Assembly (NCBI RefSeq): GCF_015207655.1
Contig: NZ_JADEWN010000108.1
Span: forward strand, 1 to 8,911
Direction of reading: 5' to 3'
From: Gloeocapsopsis crepidinum LEGE 06123
Lineage (GTDB): Bacteria; Cyanobacteriota; Cyanobacteriia; Cyanobacteriales; Chroococcidiopsidaceae
Length of the DNA: 8,911 nucleotides
Part shown: in pieces, positions 63-8,789 of the stretch
How the letters are laid out: the number at the start of each line of letters is the position of its first letter
Position numbering within the stretch: position 1 is the first letter of the stretch
Made by a program: the position numbers and the translations under genes
The notes under the pieces: model-generated
Seen by the model: only the letters and a program-made list of their open reading frames with translations
The model's database searches: none
What the model was told of the DNA's origin: nothing

Positions 63-132
63 CTAGACTGACCGAGTTTTGTTAACTCTTTCTTTTTTAG
101 CATATCCACTACTTATTCAGCAACGCCAAACT

Positions 133-351
133 ATGAACCAATTTACAATTGAACTTCCGCCTACGATCTCTAACGACGAAGCAAGACTGCTACTTGCTGC
201 CAAACTGTACGAAGTGGGTAAGCTTTCACTTGGCAAAGCGGCTAAACTTGCAGGTTATTCTAAAGAAACTTTTATCGAACTGATCAGCAAAATGAACATT
301 GCTGTCATTAACTATCCAGCAGCAGAATTGGATCGAGAAATCAGCTTATGA
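133..351 (+). CDS. UPF0175-family antitoxin-like protein, partner of the downstream DUF3368 PIN-like protein
   Basis: From ATG 133 the ORF reads MNQFTIELPPTISNDEARLLLAAKLYEVGKLSLGKAAKLAGYSKETFIELISKMNIAVINY. This carries the UPF0175 hallmark (LA..LYE.GKLSLGKAA.LAG.S...F..L....I.V.NY). Its stop overlaps the next start as ATGA at 348-351. The track's TTG at 79 adds 18 hydrophobic residues and would sit in the end of the adjacent IS, so I prefer ATG 133. Confidence 0.85.
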   Translation: MNQFTIELPPTISNDEARLLLAAKLYEVGKLSLGKAAKLAGYSKETFIELISKMNIAVINYPAAELDREISL

Positions 352-803
352 GTCACCCTGCTGTCACTGATAGCACCTGTCTTATTGGATTAGAACGAAT
401 TCAACGACTTGATATTTTGCCACAGGTATTCTCACCTGTGATGATTCCGTTTGCTGTTCAGGCTGAAGTTGGAATTACAACAACTTGGCTTACGGTTTTA
501 ACAGTAAAAAATCGGGCAGTTGTCGCCGCGCTCAACACGCAAATAGACAATGGAGAGGCTGAAGCAATTGCCTTAGCCTTAGAAATTGGCAACGTTTTTG
601 CGATTTTAGATGATTTGACGGCTCGTCGCGTTGCAACTCAACTGGGTTTAAAAGTCATTGGCACGATTGGAGTGTTACTCCGCGCCAAACAACAAGGGAT
701 AATTTCGGAAATCAGACCGTTGCTGATTGCCCTTGATCAAGCCGATTTTCGGGTTTCTGTGGCGCTAGTTCATCGGGCGTTGGAGATTGCAGGTGAATTA
801 TAA
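348..803 (+). CDS. DUF3368 PIN-like nuclease domain protein (VapC-like toxin candidate)
   Basis: The 151-aa ORF has an N-terminal VTDSTCLIGLERIQRLDIL, a central GEAEAIALALE and LDDLTARRVATQLGLKVIGTIGVLLRAKQQG. This is the typical DUF3368 layout, and the family is regularly paired with UPF0175. It shares a 4-nt ATGA overlap with the upstream gene. Confidence 0.85.
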   Translation: MSHPAVTDSTCLIGLERIQRLDILPQVFSPVMIPFAVQAEVGITTTWLTVLTVKNRAVVAALNTQIDNGEAEAIALALEIGNVFAILDDLTARRVATQLGLKVIGTIGVLLRAKQQGIISEIRPLLIALDQADFRVSVALVHRALEIAGEL

Positions 804-897: not shown

Positions 898-2973
898 ATG
901 CACTTTGAGATTATCCATAAGCCCACTTTTACCAACCAATTGCTCGCGATTCCCAAAGAGCGAGTGATGCAAATTTTGGAAAAGATTGAGGTTTTACGCA
1001 ACGATCCCAAACCGCACGGTAGCTTAAAGAAAAAACTGCACGGATACAAAGGCGATATTTACCGCCTGCGTTCTGGCGACTACCGCATTATTTATACTTA
1101 TGGTGACGGTTGGGTGGCGCTGCTAGGCGTGGATGCGCGTAAAGACATTTATAAAGGTGACAAACTGATCGCCGAAACAACAGAAATTGATGTCACGGCT
1201 TTTGCAGATCTCGATGAACTACTCACGCCGGAAAAAGCACCTGCAATTGCATTGCAATCATCGCCGGCAGAAATTTTACCCGTTGAACTCACCGCAGAAT
1301 TACTCGAACGTTTATTGATTCCCAAAGCTTGCTTTGCCGCATTGCTCGGCTGTCGTACTTTTGATGACTTACTTCTTGCCAATATTCCTGATGCGGTACG
1401 CAATCGCCTCTTTGACTGTATCACCGCACCCAACTTTGACCGAGTTCTCGACCAACCAAGTTTTGTTACAGGCGACGCGGATGCGTTACTGCGCTTCAAA
1501 GAAGGAGATTTGTTAGGTTTTTTACTCAAACTCAATCCCGAACAAGAAAAATTTGTCACTTGGGCAATCAAGGCATCAGGTCCTACACTGCTTAAAGGCA
1601 GCCCTGGCACGGGTAAAAGTACCGTTGCGCTCTACCGTACTCGTGAAATTCTACAACAGCTACAAGCAAATGGCGTGCATCGTCCGCGCATTCTGTTTAC
1701 AACTTATACCAATGCTCTCGTTACTTTCTCGGAGCAACTGCTACAACAGCTTTTAGGCAACAATGTGCAGTTTGTTGAGGTGAAAACCGCCGATGCGTTG
1801 ATGTACGCGCAGGTTTGTGCGGCGACAGGACAGCCAAAGATTGCTACGAATAAAGATTTGCTCAAATTGATTCGTCAAGCGATTGGCGACGCGATCGCCA
1901 CATTAGAAGGAAATGTCTTGCAACAGCAAGCGCAACGATTAACATTGCAACGGCTACAGCCAGAATATCTACTTGAAGAACTCACCGAAGTTATTGATGC
2001 TAGAGGAATTGACACACTAGAAGCGTATCAAGCAACTCCGCGTATAGGGCGTAGCATTCCGCTCAACAAAATTCAGCGACAAGCAATTTGGAATTTACGC
2101 CAGCACTGCAATCGCGCGATTGCAAGTCAAGGTATTGAAACCTGGGCGCAACTGAGATCGCGTGCGCTCTCAATTTGGCAAAGTCAGCCAACGTTGCTTT
2201 ACGATGCAGTAATTGTCGATGAGGCGCAAGACCTCAGTCCGGTGGCACTGCGGTTTTTGGTGCAACTGTGTCGCGAACCCAATCGTTTATTCGTTACTGC
2301 TGATGCGAATCAATCAATTTACGGTAGTAGTTTTCGCTGGAGTGAGGTTCATCAATCGCTTAGCTTTGTGGGACGCACGGGCATTCTCAAAATCAATCAC
2401 CGCACCACCAAAGAAATTGCCGAAGCAGCGCATTCTTATTTGCAAGAGGGCAAACTCGATGAAGACGACATCCAACAACAATACATCCATACCGGACCAT
2501 CTCCGGCAGTACGCGCAGTGAGCGATCGCGCGGCGGAGGGCGAACTATTGGCGCAATTTTGTCGCACAGCAGCGCGGGAATTTCGCCTCGGTTTAAGCGC
2601 TTGTGCGATCTTGGTTCCTACTGAAAAAATCGGTAAAAACATTGCAGGGCAATTAAGCTACCTAGGAATTGCGGCTCAGTTTATGACGAGTAAAGACCTC
2701 AATCTCAATTACAACGGAGTCAAAGTGCTACCGATCAAAGCTGCCAAAGGATTAGAGTTTCCGATAGTGGCGATCGCAGGCTTTTTAGATTCGTATTCTG
2801 CGATTCCTAAAGGTACACCAATGGAAGCCTCTGCAGAAATTCTGACTCGCGAACGGCGATCGCTCTATGTGGCAATGACAAGAGCAATGCGCGCGCTTTT
2901 GGTAATCGTGCCAGCGCAGCAACCCTCATTGCTCTTACAAAATTTCGCTCCTCATCTGTGGAATCTCGTATGA
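898..2973 (+). CDS. RelE/ParE-fold toxin-like domain fused to a compact UvrD-like (SF1) helicase / P-loop ATPase
   Basis: In the 691-aa ORF, aa 1-~88 show RelE/ParE/HigB hallmarks (KKKLHGYKGDIYRLRSGDYRIIYTY...GVDARKDIYK). Walker A GSPGTGKST is at 1597-1623 and motif II VIVDEAQDL at 2209-2235. Also present are FVTADANQSIY, a KINHRTT motif and a C-terminal SF1 motif, YVAMTRA, at 2866-2886. The stop overlaps the next ATG (ATGA at 2970-2973). Confidence 0.85.
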   Translation: MHFEIIHKPTFTNQLLAIPKERVMQILEKIEVLRNDPKPHGSLKKKLHGYKGDIYRLRSGDYRIIYTYGDGWVALLGVDARKDIYKGDKLIAETTEIDVTAFADLDELLTPEKAPAIALQSSPAEILPVELTAELLERLLIPKACFAALLGCRTFDDLLLANIPDAVRNRLFDCITAPNFDRVLDQPSFVTGDADALLRFKEGDLLGFLLKLNPEQEKFVTWAIKASGPTLLKGSPGTGKSTVALYRTREILQQLQANGVHRPRILFTTYTNALVTFSEQLLQQLLGNNVQFVEVKTADALMYAQVCAATGQPKIATNKDLLKLIRQAIGDAIATLEGNVLQQQAQRLTLQRLQPEYLLEELTEVIDARGIDTLEAYQATPRIGRSIPLNKIQRQAIWNLRQHCNRAIASQGIETWAQLRSRALSIWQSQPTLLYDAVIVDEAQDLSPVALRFLVQLCREPNRLFVTADANQSIYGSSFRWSEVHQSLSFVGRTGILKINHRTTKEIAEAAHSYLQEGKLDEDDIQQQYIHTGPSPAVRAVSDRAAEGELLAQFCRTAAREFRLGLSACAILVPTEKIGKNIAGQLSYLGIAAQFMTSKDLNLNYNGVKVLPIKAAKGLEFPIVAIAGFLDSYSAIPKGTPMEASAEILTRERRSLYVAMTRAMRALLVIVPAQQPSLLLQNFAPHLWNLV

Positions 2974-5132
2974 AGATTATCAAGCTTCCAGCAATTTTAC
3001 CTGGCGATCTGGACTTGGCAATTGTTAATCAACAGTTGCGCTCACGCACTGCCCAACTCGACTGGAGCGCTGTAATTTCAGCCCCAGAACAGTATCTTGC
3101 TGTATTGCTGGCAGGATTGGATCTTGATGACGATGCCGAAGTTCTCGACTGTGAAACTAGCACGTTATCCGATACGATTGCGCAGAAAGTTGCGCAGGTA
3201 CTGCTATCATCTGGTCAACCTCATATCGAATCCAAACCAACGGTTAATGCGATCGCACCGGCGCTTTGGCAGCAACCCAAATCGATTCCGCAACAAGATA
3301 ACGTTGCAGTGCCAAGTGTTTTTGAGGTTGAACACAACAATGAGCCAATTCTCCAACCACCTTCGTACTACCAAATTCGCGCCGAACTCGAACAAGCGGT
3401 ATTAGCAGATCTTTTAGGTCCCGCAGGCGGGGAATACGAAGAAATTGATGAAGCACGAGTGAGCGATCGCTATTTGGTTGGCTTAATAGCTCCTTTACAC
3501 CGCCGCCAGCGTTTGGAACAATCAGATGATGATGCGTTACAAACCGAGGAACTTACGACGGATCAAACCGGAAGCGTTGATCTTAGTATTGAACAACTCG
3601 ACGAACTTGCCGTAAATGGCGTAGGCACAAGCGACGATGGGACAACCGAACCCACCAATCCAACAGCTGAAACGATGTTTCCGTCTTCGATGGGGATGAG
3701 CTTTTGCGTGAGTGGAACTGCCACAGCAATGAGAATCACAGCCGGATGGGGACAATACAAGCGGATTGAAAGTGAATATCTAAAAAACGCAGCAGGGAAA
3801 GCAAAACAAATTTGGCGCAGACATCCAATTGTGGGGCAGTCACCAGCGATTTCGCTCACCGCTGGCAAAATTGCGCCTTGGCGCATCGATCCCGAACACG
3901 AGGTATATGTGCGCGGTCAAATTCGGGCGTGTGGTGATGATTGGATCGTGAGTTTATTTTTAGTCAATGAGCAACGCGAACCGCAGCGATCTCGCGATCA
4001 AGCATGGTTGTTTCAGCCTGAACTGAGCGTCGAATCGGCGACAAATCAAAAAGATATTTTTATTCGTAGAGTGCAAGTGCGATCACCAGGCAAATGTGAC
4101 CCTGGGCAGTATGCCGAAGAACAACTTATGGAGATGCTTTACCGACGTCACGTTGAATTTGCAATAGGACATGGAATCGGCGTTCATGCAGAGGTAGCTG
4201 CTGGAAGGACAGACCGCGCAGTTCGTCTTTGTACTCGCGTTGTTCCTGCATATGAGGTTCCTAAAACTGATGCACCGACATTCGATGAAGCTGGAACTGA
4301 ACTCGTTTTAGATATGAAGGAGTTAGCCAATTCCACGGCTGCGGAGTTGCTCGCAAAGCTAAATCCGCTTGTGCGTGCCTATGCAGATTGGATTGCCATA
4401 CAGAAAAATCGCGTTGCTCAGCTGCACGAATATGCGGACACTGCTAACGATGCCCTTGCAAATTGCGCTCGTGCCAAGGCGCGAATTCAGTCAGGGTTAG
4501 ATTTATTGCAAGCGGATGCGAAAGCACTTGCCGCCTTCCAATTTATGAATCAGGCAATGTGGCAGCAACGAGTTCATTCGCTGTATGCCGAACAGAAGCG
4601 ACGCGGTGAAGACGTGGAAATTAGCATAATTGACGTTGCTCAAAATCGTTCTTGGCGACCGTTTCAAGTTGCATTTATCTTGCTGAATTTACCAAGTATT
4701 ACAGATTTAGCGCACCCAGATCGCTGTCACGAAACTGCTGCGATCGCCGATCTGCTTTGGTTCCCGACAGGAGGTGGTAAAACCGAAGCTTACTTAGGTT
4801 TAACTGCTTACACAATTGGACTGCGACGATTGCAAGGAGCGATCGCCGGACGTTCGGGAGAATCAGGCGTAGCTGTATTAATGCGCTATACATTACGCTT
4901 GCTTACCCTCCAGCAATTCCAACGCGCAACCGCGCTGATTTGTGCCTGCGAAGCGATTCGCCGCGAACATCCTACCAAGTGGGGTAATGAACCATTTCGG
5001 ATAAGCTTATGGGTCGGTCAAAAAACAACTCCTAACCGCACCGAACAAAGCGAGGAATTTCTCAAACAAAAACTCGGACAATACCAATCAACGAGCAGCG
5101 GCTCTCCGCATCAAGTTTGGACGTATTGGTGA
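2970..5132 (+). pseudogene. N-terminal ~60% or less of a large SF2 helicase (DrmA/DruE-like, DUF1998-associated type), 3'-truncated by an IS630 fragment
   Basis: The frame is open from GTG 2958 or ATG 2970, and the ATGA overlap with the upstream stop favours 2970. About 590 aa of non-helicase sequence precede motif I, FPTGGGKTEAYLG (4761-4799), and a motif Ia-like MRYTLRLLTLQQFQRA. No DExH motif II or later helicase motifs follow. At about 5110 a different frame becomes IS630 transposase sequence, and the terminal residues VWTYW-stop are IS-derived. The family name is recalled from motif shape, not searched. Confidence 0.7.
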
Positions 5133-5601
5133 AGTGAGACGGGCATGGGTTCCCCCTGGGATTCGTCCAAGTGTTGCCAAGCAAATCGTGCGAGAATATA
5201 TTTATGCTTTTGTGGCGGTTGCACCTGCACTGGGAGAAATGACTGCTTTGGTGCTACCTTATGCCAACACTGAGATGATGAATCTGTTCTTGGAGCAGGT
5301 GGCAATTGAGTTTGCTGACTACTTCATCATTATTCAGGTAGATGGAGCTACTTACCATCACTCTGCTGGGCTAGTTGTACCTGAAAATATCCGGCTAATT
5401 GAGCAGCCTGCTCGTTCTCCAGAACTCAATCCAACTGAGCACATTTGGGAAGAGGTTAGAGAGAAGCATTTTTACAACAAAGTCTTCGACTCACTTGATG
5501 CTGTTACAGATGTCCTTTGCCAAGGCTTGCAGGAGTTAATGCTAGCTCCTGCAAAGCTGTCTTCCATGACCTACTTCCCTCATCTGAGAATTGTTCTTTA
5601 G
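5110..5601 (+). pseudogene. IS630-family (Tc1/mariner-like DDE) transposase, C-terminal fragment only
   Basis: Frame +1 reads IKFGRIGEVRRAWVPPGIRP continuously across the nominal GTG at 5134. It is followed by IIIQVDGATYHHS and QPARSPELNPTEHIWEEVREK, the classic IS630 DDE_3 C-terminal signature (SPELNP.E..W). The HTH N-terminal half is absent and no upstream start exists. Confidence 0.85.
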
Positions 5602-5604
5602 AAC

Positions 5605-5632
5605 GCGGTTTAGTATGAGTTAGCTAAACCGC
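5605..5632. terminator. Hairpin between convergent genes (possible bidirectional terminator or IS630-end structure)
   Basis: GCGGTTTAG (5605-5613) pairs perfectly with CTAAACCGC (5624-5632) around a 10-nt loop. It sits between the IS630 fragment stop (5599-5601) and the end of the minus-strand nuclease ORF, overlapping that ORF's last codons. There is no clear U-tract. Confidence 0.3.
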
Positions 5633-6083
5633 TCTTTAGCAATTCTTCCTGCAAAGACTTTTCTTGACCATCTTTCAGGGCTACGAATACTTCCGCCACC
5701 GTTCGACCGTAACGATCCTTTTCAATCGGCATCAGTATAATATTGTTACCCGCAGAAGCAACGAGCGATCGCGCGAAGTCGCGGCTTTCATAACCTAGCG
5801 GCTGATCCAGTTCGGGCGCATCAATGCCACACAATCGAATTTTTTGCTTCCCCCAATTTCCCTGAACTGTAAGAGTATCGCCATCGTGAATGTTAATAAC
5901 TTGGTACTCCTCAGATTGAGGAAGTTCTCGCCTTTCAGGAGCATTAACTATTTTATTACTACGTTCTTCACCATCTAACTTTGCACTAGGAGCAACAAAC
6001 TTTGGATAAATAACAAAGGCAATAACAAGAGCGATCGCTACGAGGGGTAAACCATTAACTAAATACCTTATCAAACTCTTCAT
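5610..6083 (-). CDS. Staphylococcal-nuclease (SNase/thermonuclease)-like protein with an N-terminal membrane anchor or signal; possibly 3'-truncated
   Basis: The 157-aa ORF has a hydrophobic N-terminus (LPLVAIALVIAFVIY). The SNase core motifs IHDGDTLTV, KIRLCGIDAPE and DRYGRTVAEV are present. The ORF ends at GLANSY-stop, whereas homologues as I recall them continue for roughly 30 more residues after GLA. Confidence 0.8.
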   Translation of the reverse strand: MKSLIRYLVNGLPLVAIALVIAFVIYPKFVAPSAKLDGEERSNKIVNAPERRELPQSEEYQVINIHDGDTLTVQGNWGKQKIRLCGIDAPELDQPLGYESRDFARSLVASAGNNIILMPIEKDRYGRTVAEVFVALKDGQEKSLQEELLKSGLANSY

Positions 6084-6306: not shown

Positions 6307-7005
6307 TTGTGGCAGTGTCACAGAAGGACTATTGCTCAACTACCAAAAGCCGCCATGAAGACCGGATATACTGATATAGTTGTTGAAATGAGCCAGAAGC
6401 TGTGCCAAGCGCTGTTGAAAAAAGAATCAGACTTAGCGCAAAAAGTCCATGAACTCGATGGCGAAGTTAACAAAATACTGCGGCGGGTAGGATTTTTTGT
6501 CGTCTCTCTAGTTTTAGCCGAACTTAGCACTTAGGTGACAAAAGAGGCAAGGGCAACAGGTCTAACCATACATCGAGCGTCTCGAATAAAATACTCTTCC
6601 CTGTTTGGCGTTAATGATAAACTCCACGCAACTGATAAAGGACTCGTAAAGCTAGTCATTTGGCAACTCAATAGCTATCACGGTCAAGGGCAAGAGCGCA
6701 TTGCTAATTTGTCTGGGTATTTAAAACGTTTCTCTAATGCCGTGCATTATGAAAAATTCCGCGCCCAAGGTCTTCCCATCGGTTCGGGGGAAGTTGAAAG
6801 CGCTCACCGCTATATTCCCCAAAAGCGCCTCAAAATTCCAGGAACCACTTGGCATCCAGATACAGTTAATCCGATGCTGGCTTTACGCATATTCGGGCTA
6901 ATGATTGGTGGGAGGATTTCTGGACGAAACAATCAGCTTCCTACTAGAACCCTATTCTACGAAAAGCCCTTTCGTGTAGTTTGTCCTACCTGCGTTACTG
7001 CTTAA
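6307..7005 (+). pseudogene. ISKra4-family transposase pseudogene (in-frame stop, internal deletion, frameshift)
   Basis: Two ORFs share one frame and are separated by TAG at 6532-6534. The C-terminal part carries the ISKra4 signature GLPIGSGEVESAHRYIPQKRLKIPGTTWHPDTVNPMLALR. The expected ending RANDWWEDFW is readable only in another frame from 6894, with a stop at 6945-6947. The combined length of about 230 aa is roughly half a normal transposase of this family, so the catalytic core is deleted. Confidence 0.7.
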
Positions 7006-7096: not shown

Positions 7097-7555
7097 ATGG
7101 TAGAACCTCTAACGGCAGCAGTCATTGTCTCTTTATTTTTCTCAGAGGCAATTAAAGAAGGTGGAAAGGCTTTAGGTAAGGGCGTTGCTGATAAATTTAC
7201 TGAACTGGTAAATGCCATCCAGGAAAAATTGAGGGCAGAGGGAACAGAAGGGCTGCTGCTCCGAGCAGAAAACCAACCAACAGAAGCAAATAAGGCAAAG
7301 CTACAGGATGAGCTACAAACCCAAATGGATGCTGATGAGCGGTTTGCTCATAAACTCAAGGAAATAGTCGAGCAACTACAAGCACAAGATGAAAAGGTAC
7401 GTCAGGTAGTGCTGAGTGAGATTGAATTAACTGGCGATTTGGAAGCAAAAGACATCAGCCAGAAAGCAACGCGGAGTGGTTCAGTCGAGCAGGAAATGGT
7501 TACAGGAGTAAAAGCTCAAAACATTGATGTGGGCAACTTAAACCAAGAAGCTTAA
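7097..7555 (+). CDS. 152-aa helical protein with a hydrophobic N-terminal helix and a C-terminal G/N/Q-rich motif; candidate effector/adaptor of the downstream NB-ARC protein (Bell/HeLo-like hypothesis)
   Basis: This clean ORF ends 4 nt before the NB-ARC start. The N-terminus is MVEPLTAAVIVSLFFSEAIKEGGKALGKGV, followed by charged coiled-coil-like sequence. C-terminal VKAQNIDVGNLNQ matches VQAGNITVGNITQ at the N-terminus of the next protein. Confidence is for it being a real gene. The functional call is hypothesis-level. Confidence 0.65.
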   Translation: MVEPLTAAVIVSLFFSEAIKEGGKALGKGVADKFTELVNAIQEKLRAEGTEGLLLRAENQPTEANKAKLQDELQTQMDADERFAHKLKEIVEQLQAQDEKVRQVVLSEIELTGDLEAKDISQKATRSGSVEQEMVTGVKAQNIDVGNLNQEA

Positions 7556-7559
7556 AGCG

Positions 7560-8789
7560 ATGGCTAGCCAGCAAGATCCTCAATTAGTTGTCCAAAAAAT
7601 CTTTGAGAATGTTCAGGCAGGTAATATCACAGTCGGGAATATTACTCAGATTTATCAAATCATTAGCAATTTGGGTAATCTTCCTCAACCAACAGGGTTT
7701 CCTCAAAATATTCCCCCCAGTAACACAGATAAGTTTGTTGGGCGCGGAAAAGAATTAGAACGCCTCCACCAACAGCTACAACGAAATAATGAGGTAATAA
7801 TTGCTGCTGTTGAAGGCATGGGGGGAGTTGGGAAAACAGAGCTAGCCATCCAGTATTCGCTGCTCCACTTACAGTTGGACTCTTACCCAGGCGGAATCTG
7901 CTGGCTAACAGCAAGAGAGGAAGATATTGGTCTGCAAATCGTAGAATTTGCTAGGACAGATTTGGGTTTGCAACCTCCAGGAGATTTAGAGTTACCTCAA
8001 CGCGTCCGTTGGTGCTGGAAGCATTGGCATCAGGGGAATAAGCTAATAGTTGTGGATGATGTTAAGGATTACGGACAAATTAAGCCTTTCCTACCACCAC
8101 AACCATCCCAATTTAAGGTACTTATTACAACCCGACTCAAGCTAGATTTAGCTGGTTCTCTGTTTCTGGAGCTTTTGGATGAGACAGCCGCATTAGAACT
8201 ATTAGCTCAATTGGTTGGAGAAGAAAAGCTCAACCAAAAGTTAGCAACAGGAAAAGAACTTTGTCAGCGTTTGGGCTACTTGCCCCTAGCGTTGCAATTG
8301 GTAGGGCGATACGTGCAGAAACGAAGGATAACTTTAGCTGAAATGCTGCGCCGATTGGAGTCGAAAGGGCTGGAGCATAGTTCTTTGGTAGTAGATAAAA
8401 ATGACCGCACTTGGACGCTAAATATCAAACAGGGGGTAGCAGCAGCCTTTGAGTTAAGTTGGGAAGAGTTAAATCAGCCAGCCCAACAGTTAGGGTGTTT
8501 GCTAAGTTTATTCGCTTTGACTCCGATTCCTTGGTCACTAGTAGAAAGCGCTGCTTTTGAGCAAGGCTCAGAAGTACTGGAAGATGCCAGAGTAGAATTA
8601 GAAAATTTGCACTTGCTACAGGGTGAGGATACTTATCAATTACATCAGCTAATTCGAGATTTCTTGAGAAATAAGCAAAAGGACTTAGCTGCTGCGAACG
8701 AACAGAAGTATAACTTTTGCCAAGCAATCGTAGAAGTGGCGAAGGAAGTTCCTCAAAGCCCTACTCAGCAAGAAATTACTACACTATAG
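7560..8789 (+). CDS. NB-ARC (STAND/NLR-type) NTPase with an N-terminal short motif and no C-terminal sensor repeats (probably truncated by IS630 insertion)
   Basis: FVGRGKELERL precedes the P-loop GMGGVGKT (7815-7838). Walker B LIVVDDV is at 8043-8063, KVLITTR is RNBS-B-like, and the GLPL-type motif GYLPLAL is at 8274-8294. The ORF stops at 8787-8789, in the region where related cyanobacterial NB-ARC-TPR proteins continue into TPR repeats. Confidence 0.9.
   Translation: MASQQDPQLVVQKIFENVQAGNITVGNITQIYQIISNLGNLPQPTGFPQNIPPSNTDKFVGRGKELERLHQQLQRNNEVIIAAVEGMGGVGKTELAIQYSLLHLQLDSYPGGICWLTAREEDIGLQIVEFARTDLGLQPPGDLELPQRVRWCWKHWHQGNKLIVVDDVKDYGQIKPFLPPQPSQFKVLITTRLKLDLAGSLFLELLDETAALELLAQLVGEEKLNQKLATGKELCQRLGYLPLALQLVGRYVQKRRITLAEMLRRLESKGLEHSSLVVDKNDRTWTLNIKQGVAAAFELSWEELNQPAQQLGCLLSLFALTPIPWSLVESAAFEQGSEVLEDARVELENLHLLQGEDTYQLHQLIRDFLRNKQKDLAAANEQKYNFCQAIVEVAKEVPQSPTQQEITTL

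What the first reader, a model, noticed from the sequence alone, without database searches (positions are those of the whole stretch)
898..2973. RelE/ParE-fold toxin domain fused in one polypeptide to a UvrD-like SF1 helicase, with no cognate antitoxin gene
Seen directly: the first ~88 aa (MHFEIIHKPTFTNQLLAIPKERVMQILEKIEVLRNDPKPHGSLKKKLHGYKGDIYRLRSGDYRIIYTYGDGWVALLGVDARKDIYK) have the length and conserved positions of a stand-alone RelE/ParE/HigB toxin. These include the basic cluster KKK, the RLR-x-GDYRIIY strand and the C-terminal ARKDIY, which correspond to where RelE places its catalytic Lys, Arg and Tyr residues. A ~140-aa linker then runs into a minimal SF1 ATPase/helicase (GSPGTGKST, DEAQD, VAMTRA). 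The gene immediately upstream is a DUF3368 toxin with its own UPF0175 partner, not a RelB/ParD-like antitoxin. Inference: the RelE-like module is either an effector controlled in cis by the helicase (nucleic-acid sensing coupled to translation shut-off) or a ribosome- or protein-docking domain. I do not recall this architecture among named defence systems.
Basis: partly seen in the sequence, partly recalled or inferred. Interest (0 to 1): 0.75.

Follow-up and report, generated by a model that had tools for sequence, protein, structure and literature searches.

The report
RelE-tipped helicase of a DISARM operon
This cyanobacterial gene really does fuse a RelE-type toxin domain to a UvrD-like helicase with no antitoxin, but it is the accessory helicase of a DISARM anti-phage operon and resembles the ArmD protein described in 2025, so the architecture is not unknown.

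Summary
ORF 898-2973 is intact (691 aa). Residues 1-86 form a RelE-family fold, and the arginines and tyrosine at RelE's active-site positions are conserved. A disordered linker and a small helical domain follow, then a GajB-like UvrD ATPase/helicase. No antitoxin is conserved next to it.

It is not a stray toxin-antitoxin gene. Its stop codon overlaps the start of drmA. In orthologous loci the order is drmD, drmMI, this gene, drmA, drmB, drmC, which is canonical class 1 DISARM. More distant relatives precede Druantia- or ARMADA-type YprA helicases or a second UvrD helicase. One lies inside a BREX-1 cluster and one is solitary.

The architecture is already published. [quoted passage not shown] ArmD is only 25-29% identical to this family. 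I found no description of the placement in DISARM.

A ~80-aa, weakly STAS-like module starts almost every partner helicase. It may be the docking or neutralising partner.

In this window the operon is decayed: drmA is cut at codon 716 by an IS fragment. The role of the RelE domain remains untested.

The parts
898..2973 (+). Gene for the RelE-like/UvrD-like fusion protein (691 aa plus stop)
   Evidence: ORF list. Pfam and PADLOC domains. The 120 best homologues listed, nearly all full length. NCBI's gene model starts at M24 (668 aa, P0001) and cuts off a conserved N-terminus.
898..1155 (+). RelE-family (BECR-fold) domain, aa 1-86. Conserved R56 (nt 1063-1065), R58 (1069-1071), R63 (1084-1086), R81 (1138-1140), Y85 (1150-1152).
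   Evidence: profile and PDB sequence hits; model and Foldseek; in 39 diverse sequences R56 37/39, R58 38/39, R63 39/39, R81 35/39, Tyr at 85 or 86 36/39.
1156..1272 (+). Variable, predicted disordered linker (aa 87-125)
   Evidence: Poorly conserved, gap-rich columns. pLDDT below 50.
1273..1452 (+). Conserved small helical domain (aa about 126-185), fold unassigned. Together with the RelE domain it forms an N-terminal cassette.
   Evidence: Helices 133-184 at pLDDT about 80-85. Conserved columns. No Pfam hit. Collinear weak match to the same region of ArmD.
1531..2970 (+). GajB-like UvrD/SF1 ATPase-helicase core (aa 212-691). Walker A nt 1597-1623, DEAQD nt 2218-2232, motif VI nt 2869-2886.
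   Evidence: PF00580 and PF13361 above threshold. PADLOC GajB and NERD+UvrD models. 28% identity to E. coli ArmD over aa 190-669, E 2e-32.
2970..5117 (+). drmA (DISARM helicase), 5' 54% only. Its ATG 2970-2972 overlaps the helicase stop TGA 2971-2973.
   Evidence: NCBIfam DISARM_DrmAS E 1.2e-178, profile positions 1-592 of 1165. PADLOC DrmA. Sequence read directly. Homology to L001 DrmA ends at aa 716 of the window protein, equal to aa 753 of 1333.
2970..3209 (+). N-terminal ~80-aa module of DrmA (weakly STAS-like) that accompanies RelE-UvrD genes
   Evidence: Shared motif in DrmA, DruE-like, ArmC-like and UvrD partners. Weak STAS_2 and DUF4325 hits in 6 of 16 members. Absent from the aligned part of Serratia DrmA.
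5134..5601 (+). 5'-truncated IS630-type (DDE_3) transposase fragment that ends the operon in this window
   Evidence: PF13358 DDE_3, profile 17-144 of 146, starting at residue 2 of the ORF. drmA homology stops at about nt 5117.
79..803 (+). UPF0175 (79-351) plus DUF3368 PIN-like (348-803) pair directly upstream. It is a separate TA-like or candidate defence pair (PADLOC PDC-S70), not a RelB-type antitoxin.
   Evidence: The same pair sits in the same position in L007 and L008 (28-35% identity).

Best explanation
The gene encodes the accessory SF1 helicase subunit of a methylation-based anti-phage system. Here that system is class 1 DISARM (drmD, drmMI, this gene, drmA, drmB, drmC). The protein is the DISARM-context counterpart of ArmD from ARMADA type II.

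Shown here: the protein has a RelE-family domain, a flexible linker, a small helical domain and a GajB-like UvrD ATPase. It is translationally coupled to drmA. The same family precedes other YprA-type helicases (DruE-like, ArmC-like) or a second UvrD helicase. Those partners almost always begin with a shared ~80-aa module.

Inferred: the helicase core uses ATP on invading DNA together with DrmA-DrmB, as the Walker A requirement of ArmD suggests. The protein probably docks on its partner through the partner's N-terminal module. The RelE-like domain keeps the arginines and tyrosine that RelE uses to bind and cut mRNA on the ribosome. It is therefore most likely an RNA-directed effector or sensor, performing ribosome-dependent mRNA cleavage or at least RNA or ribosome binding. 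It would be held inactive by the rest of the protein or by the partner until the system is triggered, which would explain why no antitoxin gene is needed.

In this particular window the system is probably dead, because drmA is truncated by an IS fragment and drmB and drmC are missing.

My confidence is about 0.8 that it is a subunit of DISARM-type systems related to ArmD. It is about 0.35 that the RelE domain is an active RNase.
For: Context. drmA follows with an ATGA overlap. RelE-UvrD followed by DrmA, DrmB and in most loci DrmC is seen in L001-L009 and L012-L014. It is also seen in 20 of 21 metagenome loci retrieved through the DrmA N-terminus. An SNF2 helicase and a large methyltransferase lie upstream in L007, L008, L009 and L012. 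L007 proteins pass the NCBIfam equivalog cut-offs for DrmD, DrmA, DrmB and DrmC. L001 DrmA matches Serratia class 1 DrmA 7s9v at 1163 bits.

Other partners. DruE-like helicases in L015 and L016. An ArmC-like helicase on a Pseudanabaena plasmid. A second UvrD helicase in L103 and L104.

Link to ArmD. Same architecture, and 25-29% identity running nearly full length. That is far better than any solved helicase (best 49 bits). ArmD is essential for defence and needs its Walker A lysine (PMC12458937 sections 5-6; PMC13463889).

RelE site. See the fold and residue conservation. Cami1 (CARF-RelE, PDB 8phb/8phj) appears among the structural matches; that it works without an antitoxin gene is from my own knowledge of the literature, not checked here.

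Self-restraint. One homologue (L017) is solitary among housekeeping genes with no antitoxin.
Against: No experiment addresses the RelE domain in any member, and the ArmD papers mutated only the ATPase motifs. ARMADA II acts directly, without abortive infection or metabolic shutdown (PMC12458937), which fits poorly with a global translation-shutoff toxin. RelE K52 aligns to a hydrophobic residue (I54), and the register of the R81/Y85 match to RelE R81/R83/Y87 is ambiguous by one or two residues. Pfam and NCBIfam scores for the domain are below the curated cut-offs. The N-terminal cassette (aa 1-185) has been swapped between subtypes without a matching change in the partner's N-terminal module (P0116: 40% identity in the cassette against 66% overall). 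That argues against tight co-evolution of the two. The docking idea rests on co-occurrence only. The structure model of the partner module was uninformative (pLDDT 47.7).
Confidence: 0.6

Rival explanations
1. The RelE-like domain is catalytically silent. It is a co-opted toxin fold used only as a protein-protein or nucleic-acid docking module. For example, it could bind the STAS-like N-terminal module of DrmA, DruE or UvrD partners, much as a toxin binds its antitoxin, so that two helicases assemble into one machine.
For: The partner N-terminal module co-occurs tightly with the gene. ArmD's RelE-like domain lacks the first conserved arginine (its motif reads VHSVRIDQTYRGIV) yet ArmD is essential (PMC12458937). 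ARMADA II defence is non-abortive (PMC12458937). Bell et al. left open whether the RelE-like domain of CnuH is active (PMC11090510).
Against: R56, R58, R63, R81 and Tyr85/86 are kept in 35-39 of 39 sequences drawn from clusters at 50% identity or less. Those are the positions RelE uses for RNA binding and catalysis, and a pure docking surface need not preserve them. Members in BREX (L107), next to a nuclease-helicase pair (L011) and solitary (L017) have no partner carrying the module yet keep the motif.
Confidence: 0.3
2. The gene is an autonomous single-gene abortive-infection or toxin system (helicase sensor plus RelE effector) that merely sits in defence islands next to DISARM.
For: It occurs solitary in L017. 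It occurs next to unrelated systems: BREX in L107, and a nuclease-helicase pair in L011.
Against: Gene order is fixed and the stop/start overlap with the YprA-type partner recurs in several loci from different phyla. All four ARMADA II genes including armD are required for defence (PMC12458937; PMC13463889). The gene lies inside the operon, between drmMI and drmA.
Confidence: 0.07
3. It is a housekeeping DNA-repair or RNA-polymerase-recycling helicase (UvrD, PcrA or HelD-like) with an incidental N-terminal extension.
For: There are weak NCBIfam matches to PcrA, UvrD, HelD and HelR.
Against: All of those scores are far below the equivalog cut-offs (for example 78 against 911 bits). The neighbourhoods are defence islands.
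Confidence: 0.03

Closest known systems
ArmD of ARMADA type II (E. coli WP_000218177.1; Bell et al. 2025, PMC12458937; EHEC O-island 172, PMC13463889)
   Same: Same domain order: RelE-like domain, helical region, GajB-like UvrD helicase, about 700 aa. Encoded next to a YprA-family helicase together with an SNF2 helicase and a PglX-like methyltransferase. No antitoxin. The helicase region is 28% identical (E 2e-32), and L007 against ArmD aligns over 722 columns.
   Different: Only 25-29% identical. ArmD's RelE-like domain is barely detectable by sequence (E 0.008) and lacks the RLRSGDYR motif. ArmD follows ArmC as the last gene, whereas this gene precedes the YprA helicase. The partner here is split DrmA plus DrmB with a PLD nuclease, not fused ArmC with Vsr nucleases. 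ArmC lacks the N-terminal STAS-like module.
Class 1 DISARM (drmD, drmMI, drmA, drmB, drmC; Serratia system, PDB 7s9v; bioRxiv 10.1101/2021.12.28.474362; PMC9142583)
   Same: Orthologous loci carry all five genes above the NCBIfam cut-offs where models exist. DrmA is closely related to Serratia DrmA.
   Different: The canonical description has no UvrD-like gene. Here an extra RelE-UvrD gene sits between drmMI and drmA, and DrmA carries an extra N-terminal module that lies outside the region aligned with Serratia DrmA.
GajB of Gabija
   Same: The UvrD-like ATPase core matches many PADLOC GajB models (best 4.7e-20).
   Different: There is no GajA (OLD-family nuclease) partner. GajB has no RelE domain. 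No solved GajB chain appeared among PDB sequence matches at E<=1e-5.
RelE/StbE type II toxins (E. coli RelE, archaeal RelE 1wmi, T. thermophilus RelE 2khe)
   Same: Same fold, with conserved equivalents of RelE K54, R56, R61, R81/R83 and Y87.
   Different: Not a ~90-aa stand-alone protein. No RelB-type antitoxin. RelE K52 is not matched. Activity is untested.
Cami1 (CARF-RelE, type III CRISPR ancillary effector) and the RelE-like domain of CoCoNuT CnuH helicases (PMC11090510)
   Same: In both, a RelE-fold domain is fused to a larger defence protein (a sensor or a motor). Cami1 appears among the structural matches (8phb, 8phj). That these proteins lack an antitoxin gene is from my own knowledge of the literature.
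   Different: The partner domains differ: CARF for Cami1 and a UPF1-like helicase with other domains for CnuH. There is no detectable sequence relationship beyond the fold.

Membership tests
RelE/ParE superfamily (BECR fold) | [quoted passage not shown] | tested here: met
   The AF2 model has that topology at pLDDT about 77-82. Top Foldseek PDB hits are RelE, YoeB and YafQ, with target-normalised TM 0.72-0.84.
RelE/ParE superfamily (BECR fold) | Score above the curated profile threshold (Pfam PF05016; NCBIfam TIGR02385) | tested here: not met
   21.6 bits against a cut-off of 23. 21.8 bits against 27.9. Significant E-values, but below the curated cut-offs.
RelE-type ribosome-dependent mRNases | Catalytic constellation (E. 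coli RelE K52, K54, R61, R81, Y87) | tested here: inconclusive
   R56, R58, R63, R81 and Y85 are conserved in 35-39 of 39 diverse members and align to K54, R56, R61, R81/R83 and Y87. The HMMER alignment to T. thermophilus RelE 2khe supports the motif match.
RelE-type ribosome-dependent mRNases | Ribosome-dependent mRNA cleavage | not testable with these tools
   Needs biochemistry.
Type II toxin-antitoxin module | Adjacent cognate antitoxin gene (RelB, ParD, HigA or similar) | tested here: not met
   The only neighbours are the UPF0175/DUF3368 pair and drmA. No conserved small upstream ORF was found across 13 loci, apart from that separate pair in 3 of them. L017 is solitary.
UvrD/Rep SF1 helicases | UvrD N- and C-terminal helicase domains with Walker A, DExx and motif VI | tested here: met
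   PF00580 75.8 bits and PF13361 61.9 bits, both above cut-off. The motifs are invariant in 25 homologues.
Gabija (GajA + GajB) | GajB-like helicase encoded next to a GajA OLD-family nuclease | tested here: not met
   GajB models match. No GajA is present in the window or in the related loci examined.
ARMADA type II (ArmA-ArmB-ArmC-ArmD) | ArmD architecture: N-terminal RelE-like domain plus GajB-like UvrD helicase | tested here: met
   compared with the description in PMC12458937.
ARMADA type II (ArmA-ArmB-ArmC-ArmD) | Strict order ArmA, ArmB, ArmC, ArmD with a fused YprA-DUF1998-Vsr helicase (ArmC) | tested here: not met
   Here the gene precedes the YprA helicase. That helicase is split DrmA plus DrmB and is followed by a PLD nuclease.
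DISARM class 1 | drmA present | tested here: met
   NCBIfam DrmAS E 1.2e-178, but the score of 596 bits is below the 950 cut-off because the gene is truncated at profile position 592 of 1165.
DISARM class 1 | drmB, drmC, drmD and drmMI in the same locus | tested here: not met
   They are absent from the 8.9-kb window: an IS fragment follows drmA and the contig starts 900 nt upstream of the gene. They are present in orthologous loci: DrmD, DrmB and DrmC pass the cut-offs in L007, and a methyltransferase is present in L002, L005, L007-L009 and L012.

The most novel reading that the evidence does not exclude
The RelE-like domain is an active ribosome-dependent mRNase. Its 'antitoxin' is not a gene but the ~80-aa STAS-like module at the N-terminus of whichever partner helicase follows it (DrmA, DruE-like, ArmC-like or a second UvrD). 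When the partner engages unmethylated foreign DNA, the module lets go. DNA sensing by DISARM, Druantia or ARMADA-type machines would then be wired directly to local or global translation shut-off. That would be a toxin-antitoxin pair split across two helicases.
Probability: 0.15. Interest if true: 0.8.

Novelty: new variant of a known kind. Interest (0 to 1): 0.45.

Why it matters
DISARM's mechanism is still poorly understood. Canonical class 1 systems tolerate loss of several genes, and their nuclease DrmC is dispensable. A widespread DISARM variant that carries an ArmD-like helicase shows that this accessory protein is a portable module shared by DISARM, ARMADA and Druantia-like systems, and apparently BREX, rather than a peculiarity of ARMADA.

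In this family the RelE active-site residues are much better preserved than in E. coli ArmD. That makes it the better model for asking whether these DNA-targeting systems also act on RNA or ribosomes. The partner's N-terminal module gives a concrete, testable candidate for how an antitoxin-less RelE domain is kept harmless.

There is also a practical point. NCBI's gene model for this protein starts at Met24 and removes part of the RelE domain, so automated annotation can hide the fusion.

Tried and rejected
1. Frameshift or assembly artefact: rejected. The ORF is intact, and the fusion is conserved in the close homologues (nearly all of the 120 listed are full length) and in 384 clusters.

2. 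ParE-type gyrase poison: not favoured. Structural and sequence matches rank RelE, YoeB and YafQ mRNases above ParE, and the RelE-type residues are conserved.

3. UPF0175 as a cryptic antitoxin for the RelE domain: rejected. It pairs with DUF3368 (PADLOC PDC-S70), and the pair is present at only 3 of 13 loci.

4. RNA antitoxin or repeats upstream: Rfam and TRF found nothing.

5. Promoter in the 95-nt gap upstream: the scan reported nothing there, and overall counts equal chance. A TTGACA at 847-852 with a 15-nt spacer to TAGAAT is visible by eye but is not evidence.

6. Fold of the DrmA N-terminal module: the AF2 model has pLDDT 47.7 and is unusable, so I ran no fold search on it. A profile search against PDB sequences found nothing. 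Only weak Pfam STAS_2 and DUF4325 hits remain.

7. The search for homologous proteins with the DrmA N-terminus returned only 12 short fragments.

8. hhalign of the N-terminal cassette against ArmD was collinear but weak (E 0.0046, probability 7.6%).

9. The original DISARM paper (Ofir 2018) is not held, so I could not check whether it mentions extra helicases. The stored part of Bell et al. Table S1 covers only ARMADA type I.

10. In alignment A3 I mistyped the last residues of the L015 row. The true sequence is, and that row's C-terminus was not used for any claim.
Full report
**Observation**

The window carries an uninterrupted 691-codon ORF at 898-2973 on the + strand. An identical protein from residue 24 onward is annotated in Gloeocapsopsis crepidinum on an 8,911-base contig (P0001). 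The window is therefore that cyanobacterial contig, and NCBI's gene model starts at Met24. The 23 residues it omits (MHFEIIHKPTFTNQLLAIPKERV) are conserved in all aligned full-length homologues. The ATG at 898 is thus the real start.

**Domain anatomy**

The C-terminal 480 residues pass the Pfam thresholds for UvrD-helicase and UvrD_C. They match many PADLOC GajB models and a 'NERD+UvrD' model. Walker A (GSPGTGKST, aa 234-242), DEAQD (441-445), TADANQSIY, NHRTT, KGLEFP and VAMTRA (658-663) are present, and their core residues are invariant across 25 homologues.

Residues 1-98 scanned alone give these matches:
- ParE_toxin, E 3.4e-4.
- RelE_StbE, E 2e-4.
- Archaeal RelE 1wmi, E 3e-5 by phmmer.

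The profile scores are significant but just under the curated cut-offs.

An AlphaFold2 model of aa 1-215, built on 17 sequences, shows three regions:
- A low-confidence stretch (aa 83-124).
- A confident helical domain (aa 133-184).

Foldseek against the PDB returns RelE proteins first: 1wmi at 5.6e-7, then 2khe, 9g12 and 3g5o, with target-normalised TM 0.77-0.84. YoeB and YafQ follow, and ParE ranks lower. The CARF-RelE effector Cami1 is also matched. The only correction is that the 'linker' is a short disordered stretch plus a conserved helical domain.

**Active-site positions**

The HMMER alignments to 1wmi and 2khe and a MAFFT alignment with E. coli RelE give this mapping:

| This protein | E. 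coli RelE |
|---|---|
| R56 | K54 |
| R58 | R56 |
| R63 | R61 |
| R81 | R81/R83 |
| Y85 | Y87 |
| I54 (hydrophobic) | K52 |

I searched 1.84 billion cluster representatives with a profile of aa 1-215. It found 2,704 proteins at E<=0.001, 384 at 1e-10 and 112 at 1e-30. Nearly all carry the module at their N-terminus, and complete members are about 690-750 aa. Conservation in 39 sequences (38 diverse representatives plus the window protein) is as follows:

| Residue | Conserved in |
|---|---|
| R56 | 37/39 |
| R58 | 38/39 |
| G60 | 37/39 |
| R63 | 39/39 |
| Y66 | 38/39 |
| R81 | 35/39 |
| Tyr at position 85 or 86 | 36/39 |

This is what purifying selection on an RNA-binding or catalytic site would give. 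It does not prove activity.

**Genomic context, which changes the reading**

The next ORF is DISARM DrmA: NCBIfam DrmAS E 1.2e-178 covering profile positions 1-592 of 1165, plus PADLOC DrmA. Its ATG (2970-2972) overlaps the helicase stop codon (2971-2973).

In related loci from cyanobacteria and Chloroflexota the order RelE-UvrD, DrmA (about 1,300 aa), DrmB (MZB/DUF1998), DrmC (PLD) recurs, in several loci with overlapping gene boundaries. Upstream lie an SNF2 helicase and a 1,400-1,600-aa methyltransferase related to ArmA/ArmB and DrmD/DrmMI.

In L007 the proteins pass the NCBIfam curated cut-offs:

| Protein | Score (bits) | Cut-off (bits) |
|---|---|---|
| DrmD | 1377 | 610 |
| DrmA | 1426 | 950 |
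| DrmB | 716 | 240 |
| DrmC class I | 218 | 133 |

L001 DrmA matches the solved Serratia class 1 DrmA at 1163 bits. The gene is therefore an extra member of a canonical class 1 DISARM operon, as that class is defined in bioRxiv 10.1101/2021.12.28.474362. It is inserted between drmMI and drmA.

**State of the operon in this window**

In the window itself the operon is decayed. Similarity to DrmA ends at codon 716 (about nt 5117), which corresponds to residue 753 of 1,333. A 5'-truncated DDE_3 transposase ORF (5134-5601) follows. drmB and drmC are absent, and the contig begins only 900 nt upstream of the gene.

**Wider family**

| Locus | Identity to window protein | Context of the RelE-UvrD gene |
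|---|---|---|
| L007, L010, L011, L012 | 46-55% | L007 and L012: DISARM operon. L010: DrmA-like gene that starts with the shared N-terminal module. L011: see its own row. |
| L015 (Gammaproteobacteria), L016 (Desulfobulbaceae) | 38-39% | Precedes a DruE-like YprA helicase; L015 also has a PD-(D/E)xK nuclease downstream and McrBC upstream |
| L017 | 35% | Solitary among housekeeping genes |
| L106 (Pseudanabaena plasmid) | 36.5% (tblastn) | SNF2, [Phd/VapC], methyltransferase, RelE-UvrD, ArmC-like helicase |
| L103, L104 (metagenome) | not computed | Followed by a second UvrD helicase |
| L011 (Chlorohelix) | 46% | Followed by a Cas4-like nuclease and a UvrD helicase |
| L107 (Deinococcus plasmid) | 33% | Sits between brxC and pglX of a BREX-1 cluster |

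The protein is thus a portable accessory module of methylation-based defence systems.

**What is already known**

Bell et al. 2025 (PMC12458937) describe ARMADA type II. [quoted passage not shown] Deletion of armD or the Walker A mutation K266A abolishes protection. D454N reduces it. The system protects directly, without abortive infection.

An independent study in EHEC confirms that armD is needed (PMC13463889). The same group earlier noted a RelE-like domain in CoCoNuT CnuH helicases (PMC11090510). Gerdes' 2025 survey of multidomain RelE/ParE toxins does not mention helicases or UvrD anywhere in its main text (PMC11980606).

I located ArmD (WP_000218177.1) in an E. coli O157 genome using a published primer. 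Comparison with the window protein gave these results:
- 28% identical over aa 190-669 (E 2e-32).
- Weak collinear similarity in the N-terminal 190 residues.
- L007 and ArmD align over 722 columns at 25%.
- No solved helicase comes close; the best is 49 bits.

ArmD's RelE-like domain is much more diverged. It reads VHSVRIDQTYRGIV where this family has YRLRSGDYRIIY.

I found no paper describing a RelE-UvrD gene in DISARM, Druantia-like or BREX contexts. Bell et al. mention only 'many uncharacterized DISARM-like classes'.

Almost every gene that immediately follows a RelE-UvrD gene starts with a shared ~80-aa module. Its consensus is M..IKLP..L...LDL..VN.QLR....QLDWSAV......L..LL.GLDL..DA..LG. 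This holds whether the gene is DrmA, a DruE-like or ArmC-like helicase, or a second UvrD.

Further observations on this module:
- Serratia DrmA aligns only from its residue 135 onward, so it shows no counterpart of this N-terminus. E. coli ArmC lacks the module.
- I searched metagenomes with this module and retrieved 21 loci. Twenty have RelE-UvrD directly upstream, and the remaining contig is too short to tell. That sample is dominated by the same operon family, so it is not an independent test.
- Six of 16 diverse copies give weak Pfam hits to STAS_2 (best 5.6e-4) or DUF4325, a STAS-like family (best 0.0029). The structure model was uninformative, and PDB sequence profiles found nothing.
- Exceptions exist. 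The genes downstream in L011 and L107 lack the module.

Co-occurrence suggests that this module is where the RelE-UvrD protein docks. Whether it contacts the RelE domain is unknown. One point counts against tight pairing. P0116 has exchanged its whole N-terminal cassette (40% identity over aa 1-215 against 66% overall), yet the only DrmA fragment recovered from its genome (P0273, Leptolyngbya sp. NIES-3755) still carries the usual module (62% identical to the window's).

**Mechanism**

Shown:
- The architecture.
- Conservation of the ATPase motifs and the RelE-site residues.
- Operon membership and translational coupling.
- Absence of an antitoxin.
- Existence of a solitary copy, which implies the protein is not intrinsically lethal.

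Inferred: the helicase acts with DrmA-DrmB on foreign DNA. The RelE-like domain is an RNA- or ribosome-directed effector or sensor kept off in cis or by the partner.

The main rival is a catalytically silent docking domain. It gains weight from ArmD's degenerate site and from the non-abortive behaviour of ARMADA II.

**Verdict**

What remains new is threefold:
- The placement of an ArmD-like helicase in class 1 DISARM and other systems.
- A subfamily with a well-preserved RelE site.
- The partner's N-terminal module.

I rate it a new variant of a known kind, of moderate interest.

Noticed in passing
window 5117-5601: drmA is cut at codon 716 (of about 1,300). It abuts a transposase ORF that itself lacks its 5' part (DDE_3 profile 17-144 of 146). 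drmB and drmC are missing, so the DISARM operon at this locus is decayed while the RelE-UvrD gene is still intact.
   Followed up: partly
window 2970-3209; also L010:2861-, L015, L016, L103:5001-, L104:5001-, L106:12079-: A ~80-aa N-terminal module (LDWSAV...LL.GLD motif, weak STAS_2 and DUF4325 hits) heads the DrmA, DruE-like, ArmC-like or UvrD gene that follows a RelE-UvrD gene. It lies outside the region aligned with Serratia DrmA and is absent from E. coli ArmC.
   Followed up: partly
window 79-803; L007:8276-9029; L008:8490-9252; L002:9110-9610; L106:3923-4628: A PIN-type TA-like pair recurs inside these operons, just upstream of the RelE-UvrD gene or between the SNF2 and methyltransferase genes. 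It is UPF0175+DUF3368 here and in L007 and L008 at only 28-35% identity, a PIN protein in L002, and Phd/VapC in L106. It may be an addiction module for the island or a functional part of the system.
   Followed up: partly
window 898-966: The public NCBI gene model (668 aa) starts at Met24 and removes the first beta-strand and helix of the RelE domain. JGI's automated names for homologues already say 'SF1 helicase/RelE'.
   Followed up: yes
L107:9974-11995 (Deinococcus sp. NW-56 plasmid): A full-length family member (33% identity) lies between brxC and pglX of a BREX type 1 cluster. That cluster also holds an HNH endonuclease and a DarT-family gene.
   Followed up: partly
P0116 (Leptolyngbya sp. 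NIES-3755) compared with window 898-1452: Mosaic protein. The N-terminal RelE plus helical cassette belongs to a different subtype (40% identity) while the rest is about 66% identical. The cassette appears to be exchanged as a unit.
   Followed up: partly
window 7097-8789: A 152-aa protein with a weak, sub-threshold Pfam DUF4164 hit (7097-7555), possibly coiled-coil, is followed by a 409-aa NB-ARC (STAND) NTPase (7560-8789). It may be another defence gene pair in the same island. There are no PADLOC hits.
   Followed up: no
window 5610-6083 (-) and 6535-7005 (+): A staphylococcal-nuclease-like protein with a hydrophobic N-terminus lies on the minus strand. A 156-aa ORF with no Pfam match lies downstream of the IS fragment.
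   Followed up: no
L007:3444-8252: The DrmMI-like methyltransferase (1,603 aa) carries an inserted DUF559 (Vsr-like endonuclease) domain at aa 680-782.
   Followed up: no
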